This document shows positions 9,589 to 26,002 of a stretch of 26,002 nt of DNA, piece by piece. The notes under the pieces were generated by a model that saw nothing but the letters and a program-made list of their open reading frames with translations, ran no database searches and had not been told where the DNA came from. Position 1 is the stretch's first letter; each line of letters begins with the position of its first letter. Source of the stretch: an uncultured bacterium (GTDB lineage: Bacteria > Zhuqueibacterota > QNDG01 > DSAB01); contig CAZYTI010000001.1 in assembly GCA_964650065.1 (NCBI GenBank), positions 1 to 26,002 of the forward strand. The letters run 5' to 3'. A program made the position numbers and the translations under genes.

Positions 9589-9701
9589 GATGGAACGCGG
9601 ATTGAACGGATGAAACGGATATAGGGATTTAAAGAAATAAAAATCAAATCTATTCAATATCCGTTCTGATCCGTCCAATCCGTTTAAATCCGCGTTCCAT
9701 C
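9589..9701. repeat. Imperfect inverted repeat built from about 9-bp ACGGAT units
   Basis: GATGGAACGCGGATT (9589-9603) is a perfect inverted repeat of AATCCGCGTTCCATC (9687-9701); CGGAT at 9598/9607/9616 is mirrored by ATCCG at 9659/9669/9678/9688. Confidence 0.8.
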
Positions 9702-9735: not shown

Positions 9736-10140
9736 ATGCAGTTTCGAACAACACCAAAAAGAAGCGTCATCATCAATATCACTTCCCTTATCGATGTCCT
9801 TTTCCTCCTCCTCATTTTCTTCATTGTATCCTCCACTTTTTTGGAACAACCGGGTATGAAGCTGGATCTGCCCCAAACGTCTCGGAATGAGGTCGTACAG
9901 ATGGAAGGATATACATTATTTATCATGTCCGACGGTTCCATGTATATCAACGAGGAATCCGTCGACCTGGAATCGTTACCGGAGAAATTAGAAGCCATTG
10001 CACCGGCAGTCGAAGAAAAAGGACTCATTCTAAAGGCCGATGAAGGGGTCCGCTATGGTATCGTCGTGGAGATCATGGATATCGCAAAGCAAAACGGCAT
10101 CATCAAACTGGTGATCGCAACCAGAACAAGGGAGGAATAA
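9736..10140 (+). CDS. exbD: Biopolymer transporter ExbD/TolR family protein
   Basis: INITSLIDVLFLLLIFFIV transmembrane segment with the conserved Asp; LPQ; ILKADE..YG.VVEIMD; AGGAG RBS. Confidence 0.9.
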   Translation: MQFRTTPKRSVIINITSLIDVLFLLLIFFIVSSTFLEQPGMKLDLPQTSRNEVVQMEGYTLFIMSDGSMYINEESVDLESLPEKLEAIAPAVEEKGLILKADEGVRYGIVVEIMDIAKQNGIIKLVIATRTREE

Positions 10141-15621: not shown

Positions 15622-18264
15622 TCATTCGTATTTCAAACTGTCCACCGGATTCGCCTGCGCTGCCCTAAAAGCCTGATAACTCACAGTCAGAAAGGCAATG
15701 CCGAATGCCAATCCACCCGAGAGAATAAAGGTCAATGCACCGATTCCCGTGTGGTATGCAAAATCCCGAAGCCAATACCTCATGGCAAAATAGGAAATCG
15801 GCCACGCGATCAAATTGGCAATCAAAACCCATTTCATGTATGTTTTTGAAAGCAGCACAATAATACCCGAAATGGATGAACCCAGAATCTTCCGAATACC
15901 GATCTCCCTGGTCCGTTGTTCTGCGGTGAAGGCGGCGAGTCCCAGCAATCCCAGGCAACCGATGAATACCGCCAATCCGGCAAAAACCCCAAAGAGTCGC
16001 CCGATTCTTTGCTCGCTCCCATACATCGCATTAAAACGATCATCAAGAAATGAGAATTCAAAAGCATGATTTAGCTCAAAATCCTGCCACGTATTTTTCA
16101 TCCGTCGCACCGTTTCGGATAATTGATCACCCTTTACCCGAAAGGAAATCAGATTGGTGCTCGATGCGAGATGAAGAATGAGGGGCCCTATCCGATCACG
16201 CAATGATTCGAAATGAAAATCCTTGACGACACCGATGACCGGCCAATCGATGAGCCGACGCTCAGGGGGTGCCGTGTAGTCTCCGACGACCTTCCCAATA
16301 GGATGGTTCCAACCAAAATGCTTCACTGCCGCCTCGTTGATAATAATGGCGGATGAGTCCGTTGAAAAACCTCTCGAGAAATTCCTTCCCTCGACAATCT
16401 CCATGCCCAAGGTCTTGATATAATCATAGTCCACCAGCCATCTCTGCATGGGAGTGCCGTTCTCCCGGTATAACCCTTCAGGACAACAAACATCCATCAT
16501 TCTTTCTGAAGTCACAGGCAGGAATCCTGACACTGTTGCACTTTCGATCTCCGGGTACTGAAGGAGTTCGTTCTTGAATGATTCGATCTGCTCTCCCAGA
16601 ACATGGGCATCATGAACGATGACCACCCGTTCTTGATTGAATCCTAAATTCTTATGTTGAATATAATCCAGCTGTTTATCAACGACCACTGTCCCGGTGA
16701 TCAGGGCAATGGATATTGTAAATTGAAAGACCACCAGTGCGCTTCTCAACCGGCGGCTGCTCAAACCTCGAGTGCATGACAGTTTGAGAACTGAAATCGG
16801 CTTAAAAGAACTCAAAAACATGGCCGGGTAGAGTCCTGCTAAAATACCCGGAAAAATAACAATACCGACGAGGGCAACAGGGATTGTTCCGCTTGTTAAG
16901 TCGTTCAACACAAAAACCTTCCCGGCCACTTGATTGAAAGACGGGAGTATGATGGCCACAAATATCAGTGCAAAAATCATGGCCATGAAACTCATTATCG
17001 TCGATTCGGCTAAAAATTGTAATATGAGTTGATGCCGCGTTGATCCCACAACCTTTCGAATCCCCACTTCTCTCGCACGATGAATGGACCGGGCCGTGGA
17101 AAGATTCATGAAATTAATACACGCAAGGACCAGAATGAAAAATGCAATGACAGAAAAAATGATCACATATTTAATATCCCCGTTTGGCTCGAACTCTTCT
17201 TCAAGATTTGAATGTAGATGAATATCCGAAATCGATTGAAGATGATAGTCTATTCGCAATCCGGACTGTAAAAGTTCGTCGAAACTCACCTCTCGAAATT
17301 GTTCCATCATCGGACCGATATATTTGCGAACCATATCGGGAAACTTGTCTTCGAATTGCCGAGGATTCGTTCCCTCTTTGAGCAGGACATAAGTACGGAA
17401 CGCCAGGTTGTTCAACCACCATGGATCACGGCTGTCATCCAGAGTGACAAGGGAAGGGATAAAATTAAAATGGAAATGACTATTACTGGGTATGTCGTGA
17501 AACACGCCGGTGATTTCGTAATCTGTGGTACCATCGAAGGTGAGTATTTGACCCATTGGATCTTCATTCCCGAAGTATTTTTGAGCCGTTTTACCGCTGA
17601 TCACAATCGTGTTAGGCTCCGCAAGAGCTGTCACCGGATCACCCTTCAGGAGAGGAACCGTAAACACATCGAACATATTCGCATCGGCAAAGACGATACG
17701 CGTCTCTTTGAAAGTCTTATCGCGATGCCTGACAAATCGCTCCGATCGTCTCGTCTGTGTGTAGAGTCGTGTGGCCTCTGAGACTTCAGGAAAATCTTTC
17801 ATCAAGGCCCCGGCAGTGGGTGCGGCCAGCGCAGCCACCCGGAACTCGCTATCCCCGATCCTACCCGACAGGGTCAACCGATGGATTCGATCGGCCTTCT
17901 CATGATAACGGTCATAGCTCAGCTCATGCAGGTCGTATAAGAGAATAAACAGGCAGCAGCTGATGCCAATGGCCAGGCCGACAATATTGATCAAAGAATA
18001 ATATCGATGCTTAAAAAGATTTCTCAAAACGATCTTCAAATAATTCCGGAACATGGCCATTCTCCAGTAAATCGAATTCATTAAAAATGATGGCAGCGCC
18101 TTCAGAACCTGATACCAGTACCACAGGTCTGCCCAGCTCTTCCCCTTATCTTCACAGTGAACCCGATAGATCTCATCAAAATCTCCGATGAGAGATTCAT
18201 GGGCCGCTTTACTTCTAAAACAGCAAAGTATCCAACGAGCGATTTTCGGGGATCGTTTCTTCAT
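15622..18264 (-). CDS. MacB/FtsX-like duplicated ABC transporter permease with an N-terminal permease-prefix region
   Basis: ESLIGDFDE...WYWYQ prefix; RNYLKIVLRNL; INFMNLSTARS..RAREVGIRKVVG; EQRTREIGIRKILG; ANPVDSLKYE terminus. Confidence 0.93.
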   Translation of the reverse strand: MKKRSPKIARWILCCFRSKAAHESLIGDFDEIYRVHCEDKGKSWADLWYWYQVLKALPSFLMNSIYWRMAMFRNYLKIVLRNLFKHRYYSLINIVGLAIGISCCLFILLYDLHELSYDRYHEKADRIHRLTLSGRIGDSEFRVAALAAPTAGALMKDFPEVSEATRLYTQTRRSERFVRHRDKTFKETRIVFADANMFDVFTVPLLKGDPVTALAEPNTIVISGKTAQKYFGNEDPMGQILTFDGTTDYEITGVFHDIPSNSHFHFNFIPSLVTLDDSRDPWWLNNLAFRTYVLLKEGTNPRQFEDKFPDMVRKYIGPMMEQFREVSFDELLQSGLRIDYHLQSISDIHLHSNLEEEFEPNGDIKYVIIFSVIAFFILVLACINFMNLSTARSIHRAREVGIRKVVGSTRHQLILQFLAESTIMSFMAMIFALIFVAIILPSFNQVAGKVFVLNDLTSGTIPVALVGIVIFPGILAGLYPAMFLSSFKPISVLKLSCTRGLSSRRLRSALVVFQFTISIALITGTVVVDKQLDYIQHKNLGFNQERVVIVHDAHVLGEQIESFKNELLQYPEIESATVSGFLPVTSERMMDVCCPEGLYRENGTPMQRWLVDYDYIKTLGMEIVEGRNFSRGFSTDSSAIIINEAAVKHFGWNHPIGKVVGDYTAPPERRLIDWPVIGVVKDFHFESLRDRIGPLILHLASSTNLISFRVKGDQLSETVRRMKNTWQDFELNHAFEFSFLDDRFNAMYGSEQRIGRLFGVFAGLAVFIGCLGLLGLAAFTAEQRTREIGIRKILGSSISGIIVLLSKTYMKWVLIANLIAWPISYFAMRYWLRDFAYHTGIGALTFILSGGLAFGIAFLTVSYQAFRAAQANPVDSLKYE

Positions 18265-18355
18265 ATGTTTCTATCTTAAAGTATTAAATTCATTTTTTTG
18301 CGAATTGTGGTTTTGGTTGCTTGACCTTGGTCATTTGATATTTATTTGATATTTG

Positions 18356-18408
18356 CCTGCCCGCCAGTTGAATTAATTATGAAAAATTAGGGAAACTTGG
18401 CAGGCGGG
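18356..18408. repeat. CCTGCCCGCC-N33-GGCAGGCGGG element, copy 2
   Basis: Arms at 18356-18365 and 18399-18408; flanks TTGGTCATT...TATTTG and ATTTGTAATTT shared with copy 1. Confidence 0.8.
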
Positions 18409-18461
18409 GGATTTGTAATTTGTGATTTAAAACAATGAACGAATAACCGGAAAATAATTGA

Positions 18462-18797
18462 TTAGACACGCTTGTATTTCTTGTAATGTCCCAACAGTTC
18501 ATTAAATCCCTCCATGATTGTATCATGGATCTCCTTCGATTTGATAAGTTTTTCAACACCTGCATCTGTTATTTCGTAATACTTCTTTCTCATCCCGCCT
18601 CTCGTGGGTGTTGGATCGCCCATGGTTGTTACCAGGTATCCCTTCATCCGTAACCTTTCCAGGATATCGTAAACAACACCCAGTGTGATGCGTTTCTCGT
18701 TCATCTTTTCAAGATATCGAAAAACATTCACGCCGTACCCCTCTCCCTGAAAACGCCAGACGGTCATGAGTATCTGTTCTTCCATTTTTGTGAGCAT
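18462..18797 (-). CDS. PadR family transcriptional regulator
   Basis: MLTKMEEQILM..GYGV..LGVVYDILERL..KGY..RGGMRKKYYEIT..G; AGGAG RBS before the ATG at 18797. Confidence 0.9.
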   Translation of the reverse strand: MLTKMEEQILMTVWRFQGEGYGVNVFRYLEKMNEKRITLGVVYDILERLRMKGYLVTTMGDPTPTRGGMRKKYYEITDAGVEKLIKSKEIHDTIMEGFNELLGHYKKYKRV

Positions 18798-18913
18798 GGT
18801 CTCTCCTGTTGGTTTGTTCCATGGGTCATGATTTATTCGTGATTCACGAAGGTATACGGGATAAAACACTTTAAAGTTTCGTGTTTTACGAAAGAATGGA
18901 ATCTTTAACTGAT

Positions 18914-19444: not shown

Positions 19445-20722
19445 TTATTTATTATTCATTTCTTTCTGAATTAATTCCAAATGCTCTCGAGCATCCTCAT
19501 TCTCAGGATCAAGCTCTACAGCTCTGTTAACGGCAACCAAAGCATTTTGATAATTCTTCATCTTCCGGTGAACGGCAGCCAGGACATTCCACGTCCGTGC
19601 ATCTGGTTTCAACTCTACGACCTTTTTGGCCGATTGCAGGGCACTCTCGAGATTTTGCTCTTTATCTGCCCAGAACCGGGCATACCTGGTCAATAGATTG
19701 GCATCTTCCATATTCTTTAGGATGTACGCCGTCCCATAAGCCTCAAGAGCCTCACTTTTTTTATTATTCTTCAGGAACAAATTAGCCGCATTCTGACGAT
19801 AACCACCAGATTCGGGAGCCAGTTTGATGAGCTTCTTGGCGTACCGTTCCCCTTCATCAAGATTTTTACCGGTTTTAATATAATACCGAACAATATTGTT
19901 TAAAATCGAAGGATTCTCCGGATACATCTTTTTGAGGTCTGCATAAAAGGCGTCGCTTTTTTTAGATACCGGCAGCCTTAAATAAAAGTTAGCGAGATCC
20001 GAATAGACCCCGTCGATCAAAGCACTCTTGGGAAATTCGGCCCGAAACGCTTCTAGCCCCTTTGTAGATCGCTTGGAGTACATATCGCCATACCCCGCCG
20101 AATAGTTCGCAGCCTCGTAAAGATTAATCGCTTTCGCTTGGAACGTGACATCAATGGTTTTTGCTTCATCCGCACGTTCGAGCACTTTCTGACTCATCGC
20201 AGCGGCCTTCTCCATCTGGTACATTTGAGAATGCTTATTCGCTAGAGCGAACATCTTTTCAAGATTATCTGGATCTTGATCGTGCTGCGCTTTTATCGAA
20301 GCATAGGTATCGATGCCCTTCAGGGATCCCTTTACTCTTTCAAAATAGTTATCAGGATCTCTTTTATAACCTGCAATGATATCAGACAAGGAACCATCGG
20401 GCTTTACAATAGCCACTGAGGGATGGCCTCCGATCTCGAATTTCTCCTCAATCTCTTCTCCATTCCCTTCACCCGGAATGGCATGAATGGGAACGAAATT
20501 TTCATGGATAAACTGAACGTATTTGTCGTTTCCGAAAAATTGCTGACCCAGCAATACACACGAGCCTCAGGTGCGGGACCATGCAAAGATGAGCACATCC
20601 TTTTCGGCATTCTCCGCTTCGACCATGGCCTCATCAAGTGAGCCCGTAAACCACTGTGTCCCCTGTCCGAAGACTGAGGAAACAAAAAGCAGAAGTAGTG
20701 AAACTAAAATCCATTTTTTCAT
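19445..20722 (-). CDS. Secreted thioredoxin-fold + TPR protein, predicted selenoprotein (425 aa, Sec at codon 52, UxxC motif)
   Basis: GGAGG RBS and ATG at 20722; signal peptide MKKWILVSLLLLFVSSVFG; W..SLDEAM..A....K.VLI.AWSRT-[TGA 20569-20567]-GSC; same frame as the 369-aa track ORF; SECIS-like hairpin; C-terminal TPR repeats. Confidence 0.85.
20539..20555 (-). promoter_or_regulatory. Bacterial SECIS-like hairpin
   Basis: mRNA UGA-GGCUCGUGUGU-AUUGCUG-GGU-CAGCAAU: 7-bp stem with a GGU loop at +19 to +21 after the UGA. Confidence 0.75.
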
Positions 20723-20808
20723 GACTGCCTCCAAAATTTAATGAGTTGAGTTATAATATACTAAAATGGTAGGGATTATCCAAAATAATTATTTTATGAA
20801 ACATTTCA

Positions 20809-21168
20809 ATGTGGTTCTCTGTACAAATAAAAGAATGTTCAAGACCATCATTGAAGAGAGGTACACATGAGGAAGAACCACTTCACTTTCCACAAAAAAA
20901 TCTGGATATGATCATTATGGTCTATGTCCTCCATCACCTCGACAAACCAATAAAATTTCTTGAAAATTTAAAACCGTATCTAAAACCTGACGCCCCATTG
21001 GTGATCATTGAACAAAATACAAACAGGGAGAGGGCTCATCCTCCCTCTTTCATGACGAAAAAGCAGATCTTAGAAACCATAGATAATACAGCCTTTGAAC
21101 TTTTAAGGACAGAGACTTTCTTACCTCGAGACACCATCTATATCTATAAATTAAAAACCACCTCTTAA
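20809..21168 (+). pseudogene. C-terminal half of a class I SAM-dependent methyltransferase (5'-truncated)
   Basis: EEPLHFPQKNLDMIIMVYVLHHLDKP..FL..LK..LKP...LVIIE; the N-terminal glycine-rich SAM-binding motif is absent. Confidence 0.7.
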
Positions 21169-21364
21169 AGATAATCATTTGATTATAATTATTTTTCTTC
21201 GAAAATAGAAAATATTTTGCAACTTTTTCCGGGTTCACCCTACGAATTTTTCTTTCGGGTTTCTTGGCAATCATCATTGCATTGTTCACAGTCAGTACAC
21301 AGCGAAAAAAGTGTTGTTTGATGGATATAATTGCATAACAATGCAATGTCGACATATAGGGTTT

Positions 21365-21604
21365 TCATTCATTAATATGATCCCACCCTTTACATCCATG
21401 ACCCGCTGCTCTTTTTTTCTCGTTTCGTTTGGGATATCCTCTACAGACATCTGGTCGTAATTCATAGATTCTACATTTGTACTTTTCTCTATTTGGTAGT
21501 TTCCTTATAATAGGTTCTGCAGCAAGTCCCACATTGTTTACAGATAAATCCAGTTGGATGCTTGAAAGAGGTTTTACTTTTATTTTTTTTATTTTGTTCA
21601 ACAA
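21365..21604 (-). pseudogene. Fragment of a YkgJ family cysteine-cluster (CxxCxxCC, UPF0153) protein
   Basis: C-terminal motif CRIYELRPDVCRGYP present; N-terminal CxxCxxCC absent. Confidence 0.6.
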
Positions 21605-21653
21605 TGCTCATAAAATGTGTAAATATTCAATGTTTTAGGTTTAGTTTTTGACC

Positions 21654-21780
21654 TTCTAACGGCTTGCGTTTGACCAGACGAAAAGTTAAGCGAAATTAGT
21701 ATCACTGAAGTGATTCCACATAGCCAACATGAATGGAAAAATTGTACGCGTTTCGTTCTGTGTCCAAACACGGGTTAACA
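21654..21780 (-). mobile_element. attC-like site downstream of the PIN toxin gene
   Basis: - strand TGTTAAC-CCGTGTTTGGACACAGA ... TCTGGTCAAACGCAAGCC-GTTAGAA; the arms differ by a roughly 3-nt gap. Confidence 0.6.
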
Positions 21781-21789
21781 TGCCATGTT

Positions 21790-22191
21790 CTACAGATACT
21801 TACTAATAAATGCCTTCGGGGTAATAATTTCTATTCCCTTGTATCCGGTTATTTTCAATAAATGTTTATCGCCAGTAACAATTATTTTGGAATTACTGGA
21901 TAAAGCGCATGAAATAAATTTTTCATCATCAGGGTCAGCACATATGTTTTGGGAAAATATTATTGGTTGGAAGAATTCAGCATTGATAGCTATTAAATCT
22001 AGGATGTCACGAATATCAATTGATTTAAATTGCCAGGAAAGTCTTTCTGCCACTCTGCGATACTCATCGAATATTTCTTTTGATAGTATCAATTTAAATC
22101 TTCCATCTCTCCAACTTTGTAGTATTTGATAAGGCGGGCCAGTAAAGAAGATTCCAGAAATTAATACATTTGTATCAATAATTATTTTCAA
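21790..22191 (-). CDS. PIN-domain toxin (VapC-like, PIN family putative TA toxin)
   Basis: IIIDTNVLISG, DPDDEKFISCAL, IVTGDKHLL; TTG start overlapping the antitoxin TGA. Confidence 0.92.
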   Translation of the reverse strand: MKIIIDTNVLISGIFFTGPPYQILQSWRDGRFKLILSKEIFDEYRRVAERLSWQFKSIDIRDILDLIAINAEFFQPIIFSQNICADPDDEKFISCALSSNSKIIVTGDKHLLKITGYKGIEIITPKAFISKYL

Positions 22192-22451
22192 TGTTTGTCC
22201 CGAACTTTCGAAATTGCGGAAGAGATATCAGATTTCTTTAGACCGGCCACTTTAGCTTGTTTGCGAGCCCTCTTTATTAGACCATCAAATTCAGCAATAG
22301 ATGGTGGGGATATTGTCTTTAATATTACGACATCCTTTTCTCCAATAACTAAAAACTTTGAACCTGATTCCAATCCGAGTTTATTACGAATTTCTTCAGG
22401 TATAACTATCTGGCCTTTTGATGACATTTTAGTTGTCGATACAGTTGACAT
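22188..22451 (-). CDS. AbrB/MazE/SpoVT family antitoxin
   Basis: TKMSSKGQIVIPEEIRNKLGL..G motif; GAGGAAG RBS before the ATG at 22451. Confidence 0.92.
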   Translation of the reverse strand: MSTVSTTKMSSKGQIVIPEEIRNKLGLESGSKFLVIGEKDVVILKTISPPSIAEFDGLIKRARKQAKVAGLKKSDISSAISKVRDKH

Positions 22452-22475
22452 GATGACCTTCCTCAATATGATTGT

Positions 22476-22517
22476 TCTTACTAGTAAGATATTAAGTCAT
22501 ATTGAGCTAAATTGCAA
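22476..22517 (-). promoter_or_regulatory. TA cassette promoter with a palindromic operator
   Basis: TTGCAA (22517-22512), 17 nt, TAATAT (22494-22489); perfect 14-bp palindrome TCTTACTAGTAAGA at 22476-22489. Confidence 0.65.
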
Positions 22518-22532
22518 GTATTATTTTGGGCA

Positions 22533-22646
22533 TGCTAACATCGGTATCAGCCGCCCGTAGCATCAATATAAAGAATTTAACTGTCAGCCCAGAAAACACT
22601 CAAAATGCGCCCGTGTTACGGGTTAGCTGAATACGAGTGTTTAGTG
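22533..22646 (-). mobile_element. attC site downstream of the DUF2971 cassette
   Basis: Arms AACACTCGTATTCAGCTAACCCGTA and TACGGGCGGCTGATACCGAT-GTTAGCA pair with unpaired extrahelical bases. Confidence 0.72.
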
Positions 22647-22682
22647 CTAAAAGTAGATACTTTTCATGTAAATAATCCATTA

Positions 22683-23485
22683 TTAACATGTTCCTGAAAT
22701 CTCAGTAAAGACCTCTGGTACAGAATAAAGCTCCGATTTTCGAATATTCTTTGTATAACGAGATAAAAAGATTTTATCCTCATCAAACTGTTGCTTGTCA
22801 AACCTAGGATCAAATAATACCTCATCAATTAAAGGGCTTGGATCAATATTGGGTAATATTAAATGAGTTCTATCTTTGGGTAATTGTTTATGAAAATCAT
22901 AGACAATTAATCTTACCTCCTCTTCATGATCAAATTCTTTACGTTTAAATAATAAAGAATGTGCTATACCTTTATTTACTGAACTAATATATTTTTGTCT
23001 GATCTTCGGATCTTTGATAATATCTATAATTTCTTGTTTATATAAATACTCTACTTTTCCCATAAAAAGTCCATAGGGAATTGACATTTTAGGAATTGAA
23101 TCAAAATTTCGATATATCAAACTCCAAAGTTCCCTAATCGTCGTTCTAACCCTTATCCTATTTTTAAAGGTGAATATATTCTCCAAAATGCATCTGTCTC
23201 GCGGCCTTGCAAAGTCCAGCACTGTCCATAAAGAAAACTTCTTTCAAAAAGCTTCTTCATCTTCCCATCATTAAATTTGAGATGTGTATTTAAAATAATG
23301 TTTTCAAATGGATCATCCCATTGACTCGGTTTGGATAAATACAATTCCTTTTTAATATACCAATTGTAAAGATGATCATACTCTAGATACCTGTAAATAT
23401 AATCATCTTTGATTTGATCAAGATTGTTCAGCAAATTTGTATAAAAAACTGGTTTTCGGATGACCTCTTTCTGTTCATCACCCAT
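22683..23485 (-). pseudogene. DUF2971 domain protein split by a -1 frameshift at about 23161-23169 (267 aa if joined)
   Basis: 5' ORF: IYRY, WDDPFEN, CWT, DAFWRIYSP; 3' ORF in the -1 frame: KNRIRVRTT, GKVEY, LLFKRKEFDHEEEVRLI, IDEVLFDPR. Confidence 0.78.
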
Positions 23486-23581
23486 ATATTACTCCCGTGA
23501 TGTTGATTTGAGTTACATCCGTATTTTTTTATTGAAGAATAAAATTGATATCCATATGCCTTCATCTTGCGTTTGATTAAG

Positions 23582-23766
23582 CACTAACGATTGGCTCTTA
23601 GGTGCGGCCAACTGCTACCGTCCCGAAACCACGTTAAATATTAAAATGAACGCGCGGTAATGTCCGCACTGCTTTTCTTTTCATGGTCGGCGAAAGCCGT
23701 CCAAATCCGAACTGAAAAATGAAAAAGAACCGTTGCGGCCGTATCCTTAGCAGCCATGGGTTATGC
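23582..23766 (-). mobile_element. attC site downstream of the DUF3800 cassette
   Basis: - strand GCATAAC-CCATGGCTGCTAAGGATACGGCC ... GGCCGCACCTAAGAGCCAATC-GTTAGTG, starting 4 nt after the stop codon. Confidence 0.82.
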
Positions 23767-23770
23767 AGAA

Positions 23771-24718
23771 TTATGCCCATGGATTTGTACCAATTTCTCC
23801 AACTCTACGATTAAAGTCAAAATCATTTAAAACAACGCATTCAATTTTACCATCATCAGTAAAAAAATGTTTAATGATTTCATATAGTTCTGTGCACTCG
23901 TTTGTATTCCAATACCGGTTTAATATCGTAGATATTGTATCTGCTATCCTAATTTCAAAATGTCTATGTGAATCAAGAAAATCTGTATTTTGCCAAAACA
24001 ATTTGTTAAAGTCATAATTTTCACCAGAATGATATTTAAGGTAAAATGGATGGTTTTCAGTTTTCCATTCGATTAAACATGGTACAGGATCTTTTTCTGA
24101 ATACGAATATAATTGATTGCGCATTAACTCATGCCAGAAGGCATTTTGTTCAAGGCCTCTGAGGAATATTTTGTCTATTTTATATCGTAAATTTACTAAT
24201 TCATGATCGTATTCACCACTAATTGAGTGACCGATAGAATTTAAAAGCCCCTTATACATACATTTGCCGAGCAACAAAATTTTAAAGAATTGAACATAAT
24301 TTATCTTCCTGTACCAATTTGCAAATTGTGAATACATTTTTGCCTGGCGGTGTCGGCCCAATTTATTATATTCCAAAATCCCATTATTTATGCCTGCAAG
24401 ATGTAAGTTTTTATGTTTTTCAACTATCGTTTGTGGGTTTAAAATGGTTTTTACACAAACTGGAGAAATTCCATTTATAGGCTCTTCCACGATAATTTTA
24501 ATTAGAAAATCATGTAATATTTCATTTGGCAGTTGGGAAGATTTGATTTCACCTTTATGATCTTTATAGGAACCATCAATCTGGTTTTCCCAATCGTTGA
24601 ATTGTTGCTTTTTCAAAATATACAAATCATGATCTTGCCGTAAATGGGCACAAACGAAAAAGTTCAATTTATCTGATTCAGGTCTAAAGTCGCCATATTC
24701 ATCAATTGCAAGTATCAT
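23771..24718 (-). CDS. DUF3800 domain-containing protein
   Basis: N-terminal LAIDEYGD and C-terminal IRIADTIS patterns fit the DUF3800 DESG...ADxxA layout. Confidence 0.6.
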   Translation of the reverse strand: MILAIDEYGDFRPESDKLNFFVCAHLRQDHDLYILKKQQFNDWENQIDGSYKDHKGEIKSSQLPNEILHDFLIKIIVEEPINGISPVCVKTILNPQTIVEKHKNLHLAGINNGILEYNKLGRHRQAKMYSQFANWYRKINYVQFFKILLLGKCMYKGLLNSIGHSISGEYDHELVNLRYKIDKIFLRGLEQNAFWHELMRNQLYSYSEKDPVPCLIEWKTENHPFYLKYHSGENYDFNKLFWQNTDFLDSHRHFEIRIADTISTILNRYWNTNECTELYEIIKHFFTDDGKIECVVLNDFDFNRRVGEIGTNPWA

Positions 24719-24739
24719 AATAACTGAATTCTTTTAATG

Positions 24740-24835
24740 CCCTAACCTTAGATTCAGTCGCACCCTCCTCCCTTTGTCAATACCGTAGCTGGTGGCTTCG
24801 TATGGAGAAAGTACGCATGATTCTAAATTTAAAAA
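24740..24835 (-). mobile_element. Degenerate attC (or attI-like) site heading the array
   Basis: GTTAGGG core at 24746-24740; 24811-24831 is a 15/21 inverted match to 24743-24763. Confidence 0.4.
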
Positions 24836-24927: not shown

Positions 24928-26002
24928 CTAATCTCCATTCGGCTCCTTGTCAAAATTGACCGCTATTTCTTGTATATGTCGCCATGCTTCTTTAACGTGG
25001 TTCTCCTCAGTATGCGTCTGTCCCACACAGAATCGAAGCGTATATTGTCCATTGAGTTTGGTGTGGGTCAAATACAATTTACCGCCGCGATTGAGGTTTT
25101 CCAGCAAACGCTGGTTGATATCATCCCCACCTCTGTGGCGGAAACAGACGAGGTTTAAAGGAGGAGGCATGGTGAGTTCGAATCGATCATCCTCCTGGAT
25201 CCACTCCGATAATTGTTGGGCCAATAGGACGTGGCGCCGAATGTGGTACTGCAAACCTTCAATACCATAATACCGAATGACAAACCACAGCTTCAGGGAT
25301 CGAAATCTCCGGCCCAGGGGGACCTGCCAGTCCCTGTAATCGATGACAGCCCCGGACTCGGTGGCCTTATTGCGCAAATATTCGGGCAGGATACTCAGAG
25401 CCCGGATCAAGGCCGCCCTGTCAGCCACATAGAAACAATCGCAATCAAAATTGGTGAACATCCATTTGTGGGGATTGAAGCAATAACTATCTGCTTTCTC
25501 CAATCCATCATGAATAAAACGGAACTCGGGACAGATTGCGGCGGTTCCGGCCATGGCCGCATCCACATGTAACCAGAGCCTCTCTTCTCTGCAGATCTCT
25601 CCGATCTCGGGCAGAGGATCGATACCATTGGAAGACGTGGTGCCTATAGTGGCTCCGACGAAGCAGGGAATCAATCCGGCTTCCCGATCCGCAGTGATCT
25701 GTCTTTTCAATAGATCGGGTCGGAGTGCAAAACGGTCATCCACTTCAATCAGATGAAGGTTTTGCCGTCCCAGGCCGGCAATCTTCACTGCCTTTTCGAT
25801 GGAAGAGTGGGCCTGGGTCGAGGCATAGGCTACCAATTGCCCATCGCATCCTTTCTCGTTGCTATGATAGTTTGTTGCCCGTTCCCGGGCGGCTAACAGC
25901 GCACAGAGGGACGCGCTGGAAGCGGAATCCTGAATCACACCTCCCCCGGTATTTGAGGATCTGAACTTTTCCGGTAGTCCCAACATATCCACCATCCAGT
26001 CC
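24928..26002 (-). CDS. PLP-dependent group II decarboxylase, aromatic-L-amino-acid decarboxylase (DDC/TDC)-like; 5' end beyond the window
   Basis: AHSSIEKA, GTTSS...D, WLHVDAAMAG, FNPHKW (PLP lysine), DYRDWQVPLGRRFRSLKLW; frame open to the right edge. Confidence 0.93.
   Translation of the reverse strand, partial: DWMVDMLGLPEKFRSSNTGGGVIQDSASSASLCALLAARERATNYHSNEKGCDGQLVAYASTQAHSSIEKAVKIAGLGRQNLHLIEVDDRFALRPDLLKRQITADREAGLIPCFVGATIGTTSSNGIDPLPEIGEICREERLWLHVDAAMAGTAAICPEFRFIHDGLEKADSYCFNPHKWMFTNFDCDCFYVADRAALIRALSILPEYLRNKATESGAVIDYRDWQVPLGRRFRSLKLWFVIRYYGIEGLQYHIRRHVLLAQQLSEWIQEDDRFELTMPPPLNLVCFRHRGGDDINQRLLENLNRGGKLYLTHTKLNGQYTLRFCVGQTHTEENHVKEAWRHIQEIAVNFDKEPNGD

What the first reader, a model, noticed from the sequence alone, without database searches (positions are those of the whole stretch)
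21654..24835. Integrase-less integron cassette array (CALIN) between a selenoprotein gene and a decarboxylase
Seen: three long imperfect inverted repeats (about 127, 114 and 185 bp) run from an ...AAC core to a GTTA.. core. Each sits just downstream of a co-oriented AT-rich gene, and a degenerate fourth site heads the array. No intI lies at the 5' end, where a decarboxylase gene sits instead. The attC sequences differ from each other, suggesting mixed cassette origins. Integrons are little described in KSB1-like lineages (inference on taxonomy).
Basis: partly seen in the sequence, partly recalled or inferred. Interest (0 to 1): 0.65.

Follow-up and report, generated by a model that had tools for sequence, protein, structure and literature searches.

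The report
Likely integrase-less integron cassette array
A 3-kb AT-rich insert in an uncultured marine-sediment bacterium is most likely a short row of integron gene cassettes that lacks its integrase; this is a common kind of element, but its recombination sites are too divergent for the covariance models I could build.

Summary
Four hairpin sites on the minus strand (A 21654-21780, B 22533-22646, C 23582-23766, D 24740-24834) each follow a co-oriented gene in a 32-35% GC island, and each ends in GTTAG. A, B and C rank 7th, 4th and 5th of 778 AAC..GTT pairs in the window for arm pairing.

The CALIN reading is likely (about 0.7) but fails the usual test. Two attC covariance models built here found 164 sites beside 80 intI genes and gave no significant hit in the window.

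Three results support it:
- The R'' ends of A and B are complementary to the start of their own cassette rather than to the adjacent R' (scores 9 and 8; null P 0.0012 and 0.005). Four genuine class 1 cassettes show the same pattern.
- Site C fits the attC layout, including the position of the extrahelical base.
- C and D belong to multi-copy repeat families in sediment and cold-seep metagenomes, and their copies end at GTT.

Cargo: a rare 315-aa gene, a frameshifted PDC-S31 defence gene and an AbrB/PIN toxin-antitoxin pair. No integrase lies in the window or in the 10 kb read beyond the decarboxylase. CALINs are common, so novelty and interest are modest.

The parts
24740..24834 (-). Site D, the head site. 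A 95-nt imperfect hairpin ending in R' GTTAGGG (G at 24746). The R'' core is degenerate (TTTAAAT, no AAC).
   Evidence: Fold; sequence. In metagenome run X1, 24741-24826 is multi-copy (summed depth about 100 against 4.7 for the flank). The copies break off at 24741-24750, at the GTT, and have unlike flanks.
23771..24718 (-). Cassette 1 gene. A 315-aa protein with no Pfam, NCBIfam or PADLOC match, from a rare family. The cassette runs 23588-24745.
   Evidence: Only 29 homologs among 5.8 billion proteins. A 43% homolog lies in L181 among small co-oriented ORFs and 223-227-nt attC sites. Nucleotide homology to the 79% homolog stops 3 nt after the stop codon, where site C begins.
23582..23766 (-). 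Site C, a 185-nt attC-like site. Layout: R'' GCATAAC, 5-nt spacer, L'' GCT[G]CTAAGG, a long variable centre, L' CCTAAGAGC, spacer, R' GTTAGTG.
   Evidence: End-to-end alignment to the attC model with the extrahelical base at the model position, but only 4.1 bits because of an insertion of more than 100 nt. Fold -30.5 kcal/mol, z = -2.0. Best arms-only score on this strand, 22.7 bits. Multi-copy in X1 (48 contigs, summed depth about 150 against 4-6) and in cold-seep runs X5-X7. Copies are bounded at 23584/5 and 23763-23768.
22683..23485 (-). Cassette 2 gene. A PDC-S31 candidate phage-defence gene split by a frameshift near 23153-23222. The cassette runs 22539-23587.
   Evidence: ORF 23153-23485 matches PADLOC PDLC04993 positions 4-95 (E = 3e-29). 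ORF 22683-23222 matches positions 94-240 (E = 8e-32).
22533..22646 (-). Site B, a 113-114-nt attC-like site. R'' CACTAAAC, an arm stem of about 25 bp with more unpaired bases on the 5' arm, R' GTTAGCA. It has no clear unpaired central spacer.
   Evidence: Arm pairing -12.0 kcal/mol, rank 4 of 778. Its R'' matches the start of its own cassette (GCACTAAAC against the reverse complement GCACTAAC): score 8, null P = 0.005, against 3 for the adjacent R'. It folds end to end only in the circularised form.
21790..22466 (-). Cassette 3 genes. An AbrB/MazE-type antitoxin (22188-22466) and a PIN_3 toxin (21790-22191) that overlap by 4 nt. The cassette runs 21660-22538.
   Evidence: Pfam PF04014 and PF13470. 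TIGR01439 and TIGR00305.
21654..21780 (-). Site A, a 127-nt attC-like site. R'' (GGCA)TGTTAAC, L box GTGTTTG[G]AC[A]CAGA[A]CG pairing with CGTCTGGTCAAACGC, R' GTTAGAA.
   Evidence: Arm pairing -10.2 kcal/mol, rank 7 of 778. Arms-only profile 17.5 bits, rank 5. Its R'' matches the start of its own cassette in 10 of 11 positions: score 9, null P = 0.0012, against 4 for the adjacent R'. The circularised form folds as one hairpin at -18.1 against -12.1 kcal/mol.
21365..21611 (-). Trailing remnant. A CxxCxxCC (YkgJ-like) gene in two reading frames, with no closing attC-like site.
   Evidence: ORFs in two frames. PF03692 matches the second part. No AAC..GTT hairpin follows it.
20809..21168 (+). A SAM-methyltransferase fragment (C-terminal part only) at the far edge of the AT-rich island, on the opposite strand.
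   Evidence: Pfam matches begin at profile position about 52-66. GC 35-39%.
24928..26002 (-). Flank. A PLP-dependent decarboxylase gene (484 aa in the full contig) with 50-54% GC, belonging to the host backbone.
   Evidence: PF00282, E = 8e-91..

Best explanation
The stretch 21654-24834 (minus strand) is a short array of three integron-type gene cassettes with no integron integrase nearby, i.e. a CALIN. It sits between a decarboxylase gene and a decayed tail.

Each cassette runs from the TT of one GTTAG core to the G of the next. Each carries its own attC-like hairpin at its 3' end.

Inferred mechanism: the cassettes were once circles. An IntI-type tyrosine recombinase bound the folded bottom strand (here the window's plus strand) and joined them by exchange at G|TT. 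It acted either at the attI site of an integron that has since been lost or moved away, or at a secondary GTT site in the chromosome.

Without an integrase the array is now stranded. The toxin-antitoxin cassette may hold it in place while other genes decay, which would fit the two frameshifts.

Shown here: the hairpins, their positions, the junction signature, and the repeat-family behaviour of sites C and D. Inferred: recombination by IntI, how the array arose, and any present activity.
For: 1. Arm pairing. Sites B, C and A rank 4th, 5th and 7th of 778 AAC..GTT pairs, and each follows a co-oriented ORF.

2. Junction signature. In an integron the crossover at G|TT means that a cassette's R'' pairs with the bases at that cassette's own 5' end, not with the adjacent R'.
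- Site A scores 9 against its own start and 4 against the adjacent R' (null P = 0.0012).
- Site B scores 8 against 3 (null P = 0.005).
- The same test on four genuine class 1 cassettes (VIM-2, arr-3, aadA2, aacA4) gives 8-12 against 4-6.
- When rejoined as circles, A and B fold into one end-to-end hairpin.

3. Layout of site C. It aligns end to end with an attC covariance model: 7-nt R box, 5-nt spacer, and the extrahelical base after the third L-box pair.

4. Asymmetry. A, B and C each carry 2-3 net extra bases on the 5' arm, as attC sites do, and this agrees with the ORF orientation.

5. Repeat families. C and D are multi-copy in marine-sediment metagenomes, and C also in cold-seep metagenomes. 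Their copies end at the AAC and GTT cores and have unlike flanks.

6. Island and cargo. The island has 32-35% GC against about 47% elsewhere. It carries a toxin-antitoxin pair and a candidate defence gene, both typical cassette cargo (bioRxiv 10.1101/2024.07.02.601719).

7. Gene family in an array. A homolog of the 315-aa gene lies in an array with canonical attC arms, 223-227 nt long.
Against: - Two attC covariance models that recover 164 sites beside 80 intI genes, 162 of them on the expected strand, give nothing significant in the window. The best hit is 9.1 bits, E = 2.6, and the full site C scores 4.1 bits.
- Without the length penalty the sites score 13.8-22.7 bits. Genuine attC sites score 31-65, and chance hits elsewhere in the window reach 19.5-24.1.
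- The strict core consensus is not met at any site.
- Site B has no unpaired spacer, and site D has no AAC core.
- Cassette 1 does not show the junction signature: score 4 against its own start, 6 against the adjacent R'.
- No intI was seen, and no excision joints appear in the metagenome contigs.
- The 79% homolog of the 315-aa gene carries no such site.
- The same genome has another multi-copy palindrome outside the island, so being multi-copy does not prove a site is an attC.
Confidence: 0.7

Rival explanations
1. The island is a small defence and toxin-antitoxin island acquired by another route. Its hairpins would then be dispersed palindromic repeats of the MITE/REP/ERIC type (C and D) plus long gene-end stem-loops (A and B) that only happen to end in AAC and GTTAG.
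For: - C and D are multi-copy with sharp, symmetric ends, as expected for a miniature element with terminal inverted repeats.
- An unrelated palindrome at 9590-9700 also has multi-copy arms.
- The attC covariance models are negative.
- The 79% homolog of the 315-aa gene lacks site C.
- Terminator-like hairpins lie inside C.
Against: - It does not explain why the R'' of A and of B match the bases just after the previous site's GTT, 0.9-1 kb away, better than their own 3' ends. Genuine cassettes show exactly this pattern.
- It does not explain four of four sites ending in GTTAG.
- It does not explain the extra bases always lying on the same arm.
- It does not explain the attC-like layout of C.
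- No target-site duplication is visible at C.
Confidence: 0.2
2. The modules were moved by a different recombinase that acts on hairpins or short inverted repeats (for example a Y1/HUH enzyme or a Xer/dif-module-like system), not by an integron integrase.
For: - The junction signature only shows that exchange happened at the GTT cores. It does not show which enzyme did it.
- The R boxes of A and B are unusually long, 8-11 bp.
- The attC covariance models fail.
Against: - No such recombinase gene lies in the 45 kb inspected.
- The AAC/GTT cores, the asymmetric arms and the layout of site C are those of attC sites.
- dif modules use 28-bp sites, not hairpins of 113-185 nt (established knowledge of pdif modules).
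Confidence: 0.06
3. The hairpins are chance structures or ordinary transcription terminators with no role in recombination.
For: - Folding of A and D is no better than that of shuffled sequence.
- The arms-only profile scores fall within the range of chance hits in the window.
Against: - Three of the seven best AAC..GTT arm pairings in 26 kb fall in the three gene gaps of a 3-kb island.
- The shared GTTAG ends, the junction signature (P about 1e-3 each) and the multi-copy families are not expected by chance.
Confidence: 0.04

Closest known systems
CALIN (cluster of attC sites lacking an integron integrase), as defined by IntegronFinder (Cury et al. 2016, PMC4889954; Néron et al. 2022, bioRxiv 10.1101/2022.02.28.482270)
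   Same: - At least two co-oriented attC-like sites less than 4 kb apart, each after a co-oriented ORF.
- No intI in the window or in the 10 kb read beyond the decarboxylase.
- A few cassettes of unknown, defence or toxin-antitoxin function, and no resistance genes.
- Genes in decay, as expected for a degraded integron.
   Different: - The sites are not recognised at a significant level by the attC covariance models built here.
- Site C is 185 nt, against 57-141 nt for class 1 attC sites.
- The R boxes of A and B span 8-11 bp.
- Site B lacks the unpaired spacer.
attC repeat families of sedentary chromosomal integrons (for example the Vibrio cholerae repeats)
   Same: Sites C and D belong to families with many copies 80-92% alike. 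Copies are conserved from the AAC core to the GTT core and have unlike flanks.
   Different: - Only one copy of each family lies in the 45 kb seen here.
- No array of these copies, and no integrase, has been seen.
- Sites A and B are single-copy.
The cassette array in locus L181 (ENA ERZ25039554 contig_15632), which carries a homolog of the 315-aa gene
   Same: - An AT-rich (about 30% GC) run of small co-oriented ORFs.
- Long attC sites with very long variable centres, which the covariance model penalises heavily.
- The same gene family as cargo.
   Different: The L181 sites have canonical attC arms (arms-only 24.8-39.5 bits; model E = 0.038) and repeat within the array. The window's sites score lower and are all different from each other.
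Miniature palindromic repeats (MITE, ERIC, REP/BIME)
   Same: Intergenic, imperfectly palindromic, 95-185 nt, multi-copy with sharp ends (sites C and D).
   Different: These repeats have no reason to show cassette-end complementarity, a shared GTTAG end, one-sided extra bases, or one site per gene in a single orientation.

Membership tests
integron attC site | Significant match to an attC covariance model (the operational test of IntegronFinder) | tested here: not met
   Models R1 (6 class 1 sites) and R2 (150 sites from 80 intI loci) found 164 sites in the control loci. In the window the best hit is 9.1 bits, E = 2.6, and the full site C scores 4.1 bits. IntegronFinder's own model was not available.
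integron attC site | Conserved cores: 5' ...AAC (R'') and GTT... 3' (R') | tested here: met
   A, B and C run from AAC to GTTAG. D has GTTAG but no AAC. The wider consensus RYYYAAC/GTTRRRY is not met.
integron attC site | Paired L''/L' boxes next to the R box, separated by an unpaired central spacer | tested here: inconclusive
   L boxes pair strongly in A, B and C. The spacer is canonical in C (5 nt each side), uneven in A (2 against 5 nt) and absent in B.
integron attC site | Extrahelical bases on the R''-L'' arm, which mark the recombining strand | tested here: met
   There are 2-3 net extra bases on the 5' arm in A, B and C. In C one sits at the exact model position, but it is G on the top strand where the consensus has C.
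integron attC site | R'' complementary to the cassette's own 5' end, the footprint of exchange at G|TT | tested here: met
   A scores 9 and B scores 8 against their own cassette starts (null P = 0.0012 and 0.005). C scores 4, not significant. Four genuine class 1 cassettes score 8-12.
integron attC site | Recombined by an integron integrase as a folded single strand | not testable with these tools
   This needs an integrase assay. Metagenome contigs showed no excision joints, but contigs cannot show rare events.
CALIN | At least two attC sites within 4 kb on one strand and no intI nearby | tested here: inconclusive
   Spacing (0.9-1.2 kb) and strand fit. No tyrosine recombinase lies in the window or in the 10 kb read beyond the decarboxylase. 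Membership depends on accepting the sites as attC, which the covariance model does not.
MITE / REP-like palindromic repeat | Many dispersed copies with terminal inverted repeats, usually with target-site duplications | tested here: inconclusive
   C and D are multi-copy with sharp ends. A and B are not. No duplication is visible at C. How the other copies are arranged could not be seen.

The most novel reading that the evidence does not exclude
Sites C and D would represent lineage-specific attC classes with centres of 95-185 nt or more and divergent cores. They are present in dozens of copies in marine-sediment metagenomes (C also in cold-seep ones). Together with the 223-227-nt sites of L181, this would mean that AT-rich uncultured bacteria hold large integron arrays that current detection largely misses, because the models are trained on Proteobacteria and IntegronFinder applies a 200-nt size limit (from my own knowledge; not checked here).
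Probability: 0.3. Interest if true: 0.55.

Novelty: new member of a known kind. Interest (0 to 1): 0.35.

Why it matters
If the reading is right, this adds one more small, decaying CALIN to the thousands already catalogued, so the biology is not new.

Two things are of practical value:
- The junction-complementarity test (R'' against the cassette's own start) identified cassette boundaries where the covariance models failed. It could complement model-based detection in divergent lineages.
- Long attC-like sites (185 nt here, 223-227 nt in L181) suggest that integron surveys of sediment metagenomes undercount cassettes.

The cargo fits the recent view of integron cassettes as stores of defence genes: a rare 315-aa family seen next to an AbiJ-domain gene elsewhere, and a PDC-S31 candidate defence gene.

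Tried and rejected
- Rfam and tRNA scans of the window found nothing.
- Strict RYYYAAC/GTTRRRY pattern search: no match at any site.
- Empty-site test via the decarboxylase: 80 metagenome loci at 72-82% protein identity share no neighbouring gene with the window.
- Empty-site test via the Trx-TPR gene: relatives at 47-60% identity have other neighbours.
- Contigs from the same population are identical across the array, so they show no variation in cassette content.
- Two exact-protein look-ups of the TPR protein found no record.
- Search for other copies of A-D in all fetched loci: none.
- Exact-pattern scans of viral contigs for the C and D arms: none.
- Taxonomy from protein cluster names: no names are held. 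The literature has nothing on integrons in KSB1.
- Excision joints in metagenome contigs: none within the island.
- The 12-bp perfect inverted repeat at 21275-21348 runs GTT...AAC, the wrong way round, so I rejected it as a closing attC.
- A possible 185-nt version of site D starting at TGGAAAC just after the decarboxylase stop pairs weakly (-5.9 kcal/mol, not anchored), so I did not adopt it.
Full report
**What is there**

The window is about 47% GC, but 20.8-24.9 kb is 32-37% GC. In that island all genes but one lie on the minus strand. Reading down from the decarboxylase gene (24928 onward, 50-54% GC), they are:
- a 315-aa gene with no family match (23771-24718);
- a gene split by a frameshift, whose two halves match positions 4-95 and 94-240 of the PADLOC candidate defence family PDC-S31 (22683-23485);
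- an AbrB/MazE antitoxin and a PIN toxin (21790-22466);
- a CxxCxxCC gene in two reading frames (21365-21611);
- a methyltransferase fragment on the other strand (20809-21168).

The window comes from a 207-kb JGI metagenome contig. The 10 kb beyond the decarboxylase encodes ordinary genes and no recombinase. The rest of the window has none either.

**The observation**

I took every AAC..GTT pair 50-200 nt apart on the minus strand of the whole window (778 pairs) and folded the two 25-nt arms against each other. Sites B (22646-22533), C (23766-23582) and A (21780-21654) rank 4th, 5th and 7th. Each starts 4-38 nt after the stop codon of a co-oriented gene.

A fourth, 95-nt hairpin (D, 24834-24740) precedes the first gene. 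It ends in GTTAGGG but has no AAC core. Four of the five GTTAG on this strand of the island are the 3' ends of the four sites. The sites are 41-49% GC while the genes are 30-34% GC.

The strict consensus RYYYAAC/GTTRRRY is not met at any site. Only C folds clearly better than shuffled sequence.

**The covariance-model test**

No attC model was on hand, so I built one independently of the window.
- I confirmed an IntI1 protein sequence against plasmids at 100% identity.
- I read six attC sites from class 1 arrays.
- I built model R1 from them.
- I fetched 80 loci with integron integrases from GTDB genomes.

R1 found 164 sites in those loci, 162 of them on the expected strand; the integrase match begins at or after position 10001 in many loci, and the listed hits lie before it. 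That is a good positive control. Model R2 was built from 150 of these sites.

On the window, with filters off, neither model gives a significant hit. The best is 9.1 bits, E = 2.6, on a 38-nt piece of site A, no better than hits elsewhere in the window.

In a search of the island alone, site C aligns to the whole model with the canonical layout: a 7-nt R box, a 5-nt spacer, and the extrahelical base after the third L-box pair. It still scores only 4.1 bits because of an insertion of more than 100 nt.

I then made an arms-only profile from the same 150 sites, with no length penalty. It puts C first on the minus strand (22.7 bits), A 5th (17.5), B 8th (13.9) and a D-region candidate (24912-24740) 9th (13.8). 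Chance hits elsewhere in the window reach 19.5-24.1 bits, and genuine sites score 31-65. By this standard the sites are not significant individually. Both models derive from Beta- and Gammaproteobacteria, so the negative result is weaker for a distant AT-rich lineage.

**An integron-specific signature**

Integrase exchange occurs between the G and the TT of R'. In an array, therefore, the bases after each GTT belong to the next cassette, and a cassette's R'' is complementary to its own 5' end rather than to the R' beside it.

I scored this for each site:
- Site A's R'' (GGCATGTTAAC) matches the bases after site B's GTT (reverse complement GGCATGCTAAC). The score is 9, null P = 0.0012, against 4 for its adjacent R'.
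- Site B's R'' (GCACTAAAC) matches the bases after site C's GTT (GCACTAAC). The score is 8, null P = 0.005, against 3.
- Site C scores 4 against its own start and 6 against its adjacent R', which is not informative.

The same test on four genuine class 1 cassettes (VIM-2, arr-3, aadA2, aacA4) gives 8-12 against the cassette's own start and 4-6 against the adjacent R'.

When A and B are rejoined as excised circles, they fold into single end-to-end hairpins: -18.1 against -12.1 kcal/mol for A, and -18.3 against -16.7 for B. In A, B and C the net extra bases (2-3) lie on the 5' arm, as in attC sites, and this agrees with the orientation of the genes. This is the strongest evidence that the units were joined by exchange at the GTT cores.

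**Repeat families**

Logan contigs of a marine-sediment metagenome (run X1) cover the unique parts of the island at depth 4-6. Site C is matched by 48 contigs at 80% identity or more, with a summed depth of about 150. Those matches are bounded at 23584/5 and 23764-23768, which are the GTT and AAC cores, and their flanks are unlike each other. Cold-seep metagenomes from another study hold 9-12 such contigs each, without the window's flanking genes.

Site D behaves the same way across 24741-24826, and its copies break off at the GTT. Sites A and B are single-copy.

This fits attC families from large arrays, but it equally fits miniature palindromic elements. As a control, the arms of an unrelated palindrome at 9590-9700 are also multi-copy, 4-5 further contigs in each of two runs. 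Being multi-copy is therefore not proof.

**Context of the cargo**

The 315-aa family is rare, with 29 homologs among 5.8 billion proteins.
- The 79% homolog sits in front of a 313-aa partner gene and has no hairpin. Nucleotide homology to the window ends 3 nt after the stop codon, exactly where site C begins.
- A 59% homolog neighbours an AbiJ-domain gene.
- A 43% homolog lies in locus L181, a 30% GC run of small co-oriented ORFs. Its repeated 223-227-nt sites have canonical attC arms: R2 gives 16.2 bits, E = 0.038 with filters off, and the arms-only profile gives 24.8-39.5 bits.

So the family does occur in a real cassette array. L181 also shows that long attC sites in AT-rich genomes are heavily penalised by the model.

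**What could not be tested**

No relative was close enough for an empty-site comparison. Contigs from the same population are identical across the array. Taxonomy could not be established. No excision joints were seen, but contigs cannot show rare events.

**Comparison with what is known**

CALINs are well described. There were 279 in 2,484 genomes in 2016 and 2,961 in RefSeq in 2022, with about 5-6 sites on average, few resistance genes, and most with no intI pseudogene nearby (PMC4889954; bioRxiv 10.1101/2022.02.28.482270). They are more abundant among Bacteria and more widely distributed across taxa than complete integrons (PMC9668308). Cassettes can also be inserted at secondary genomic sites by the integrase (bioRxiv 10.1101/2022.09.11.507474), and cassettes often encode defence systems (bioRxiv 10.1101/2024.07.02.601719).

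This locus works like a CALIN and most likely is one. Formal membership is inconclusive, however, because the model-based criterion was tested and not met.

**Verdict**

- Integrase-less cassette array: about 0.7.
- Palindromic repeats and gene-end hairpins in a defence/toxin-antitoxin island: about 0.2.
- Another recombination system, or chance: about 0.1 together.

I rate it a new member of a known kind, with interest 0.35.

Noticed in passing
window 19445-20734 (-), TGA at 20567-20569: A secreted thioredoxin-like/TPR protein has an in-frame TGA in a UGSC (UxxC) motif. Read through, the N-terminus matches Thioredoxin_7 across the TGA. A 7-bp hairpin (UUGCUGG/CAGCAA) with a 3-nt loop starts 14 nt downstream. 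Relatives of 370-375 aa are truncated at the same point by gene callers, and the Cys forms of about 450 aa carry Thioredoxin_2.
   Followed up: partly
window 9590-9700: A 111-nt near-perfect palindrome lies between the RtcB and ExbD genes and gives the strongest arm pairing in the window (-27 kcal/mol). Its arms of about 33 nt are multi-copy in metagenome runs X1 and X3, so it is a dispersed repeat unrelated to sites A-D.
   Followed up: partly
L181 282-508, 4299-4521, 4837-5062: A genome contig (ENA ERZ25039554 contig_15632) carries a cassette array with canonical attC arms but sites 223-227 nt long. That is above IntegronFinder's 200-nt size limit as I recall it (not checked here). The model built here barely detects them: none at E <= 1 with default filters, and 16.2 and 11.6 bits for two sites with filters off.
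   Followed up: partly
window 22683-23485 (-): A PDC-S31 candidate phage-defence gene is split by a frameshift near 23153-23222. Across the array the sequence from a second sample's contig is the same (site blocks 100% identical, ORF spacing unchanged), which suggests a real pseudogene rather than an assembly error.
   Followed up: partly
L172 4501-6602; L175 2259-4087: Closer homologs of the 315-aa protein are followed by a 313-aa partner gene of unknown function (L172-L173) or by an AbiJ_NTD5 gene (L175). This hints that the family belongs to a two-gene defence system, of which the window keeps only the first gene.
   Followed up: no
window 21275-21286 and 21337-21348: A perfect 12-bp inverted repeat (CATTGCATTGTT / AACAATGCAATG) with a 50-nt loop lies just downstream of the broken CxxCxxCC gene. 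It runs GTT...AAC, so it is not an attC-type site. Its function is unknown.
   Followed up: no
window 15622-18869 (-) and L001 3397-6291: PadR regulator plus MacB/FtsX-type permease gene pairs occur on both sides of the decarboxylase-island region. They may be paralogous pairs.
   Followed up: no
window 21654-21691 (-): Inside site A there is a second core, GCTTAAC, which with GTTAGAA forms a 38-nt mini-site. This is the best covariance-model hit in the window (9.1 bits), and a 37-nt partial match to it occurs in metagenome run X1.
   Followed up: no
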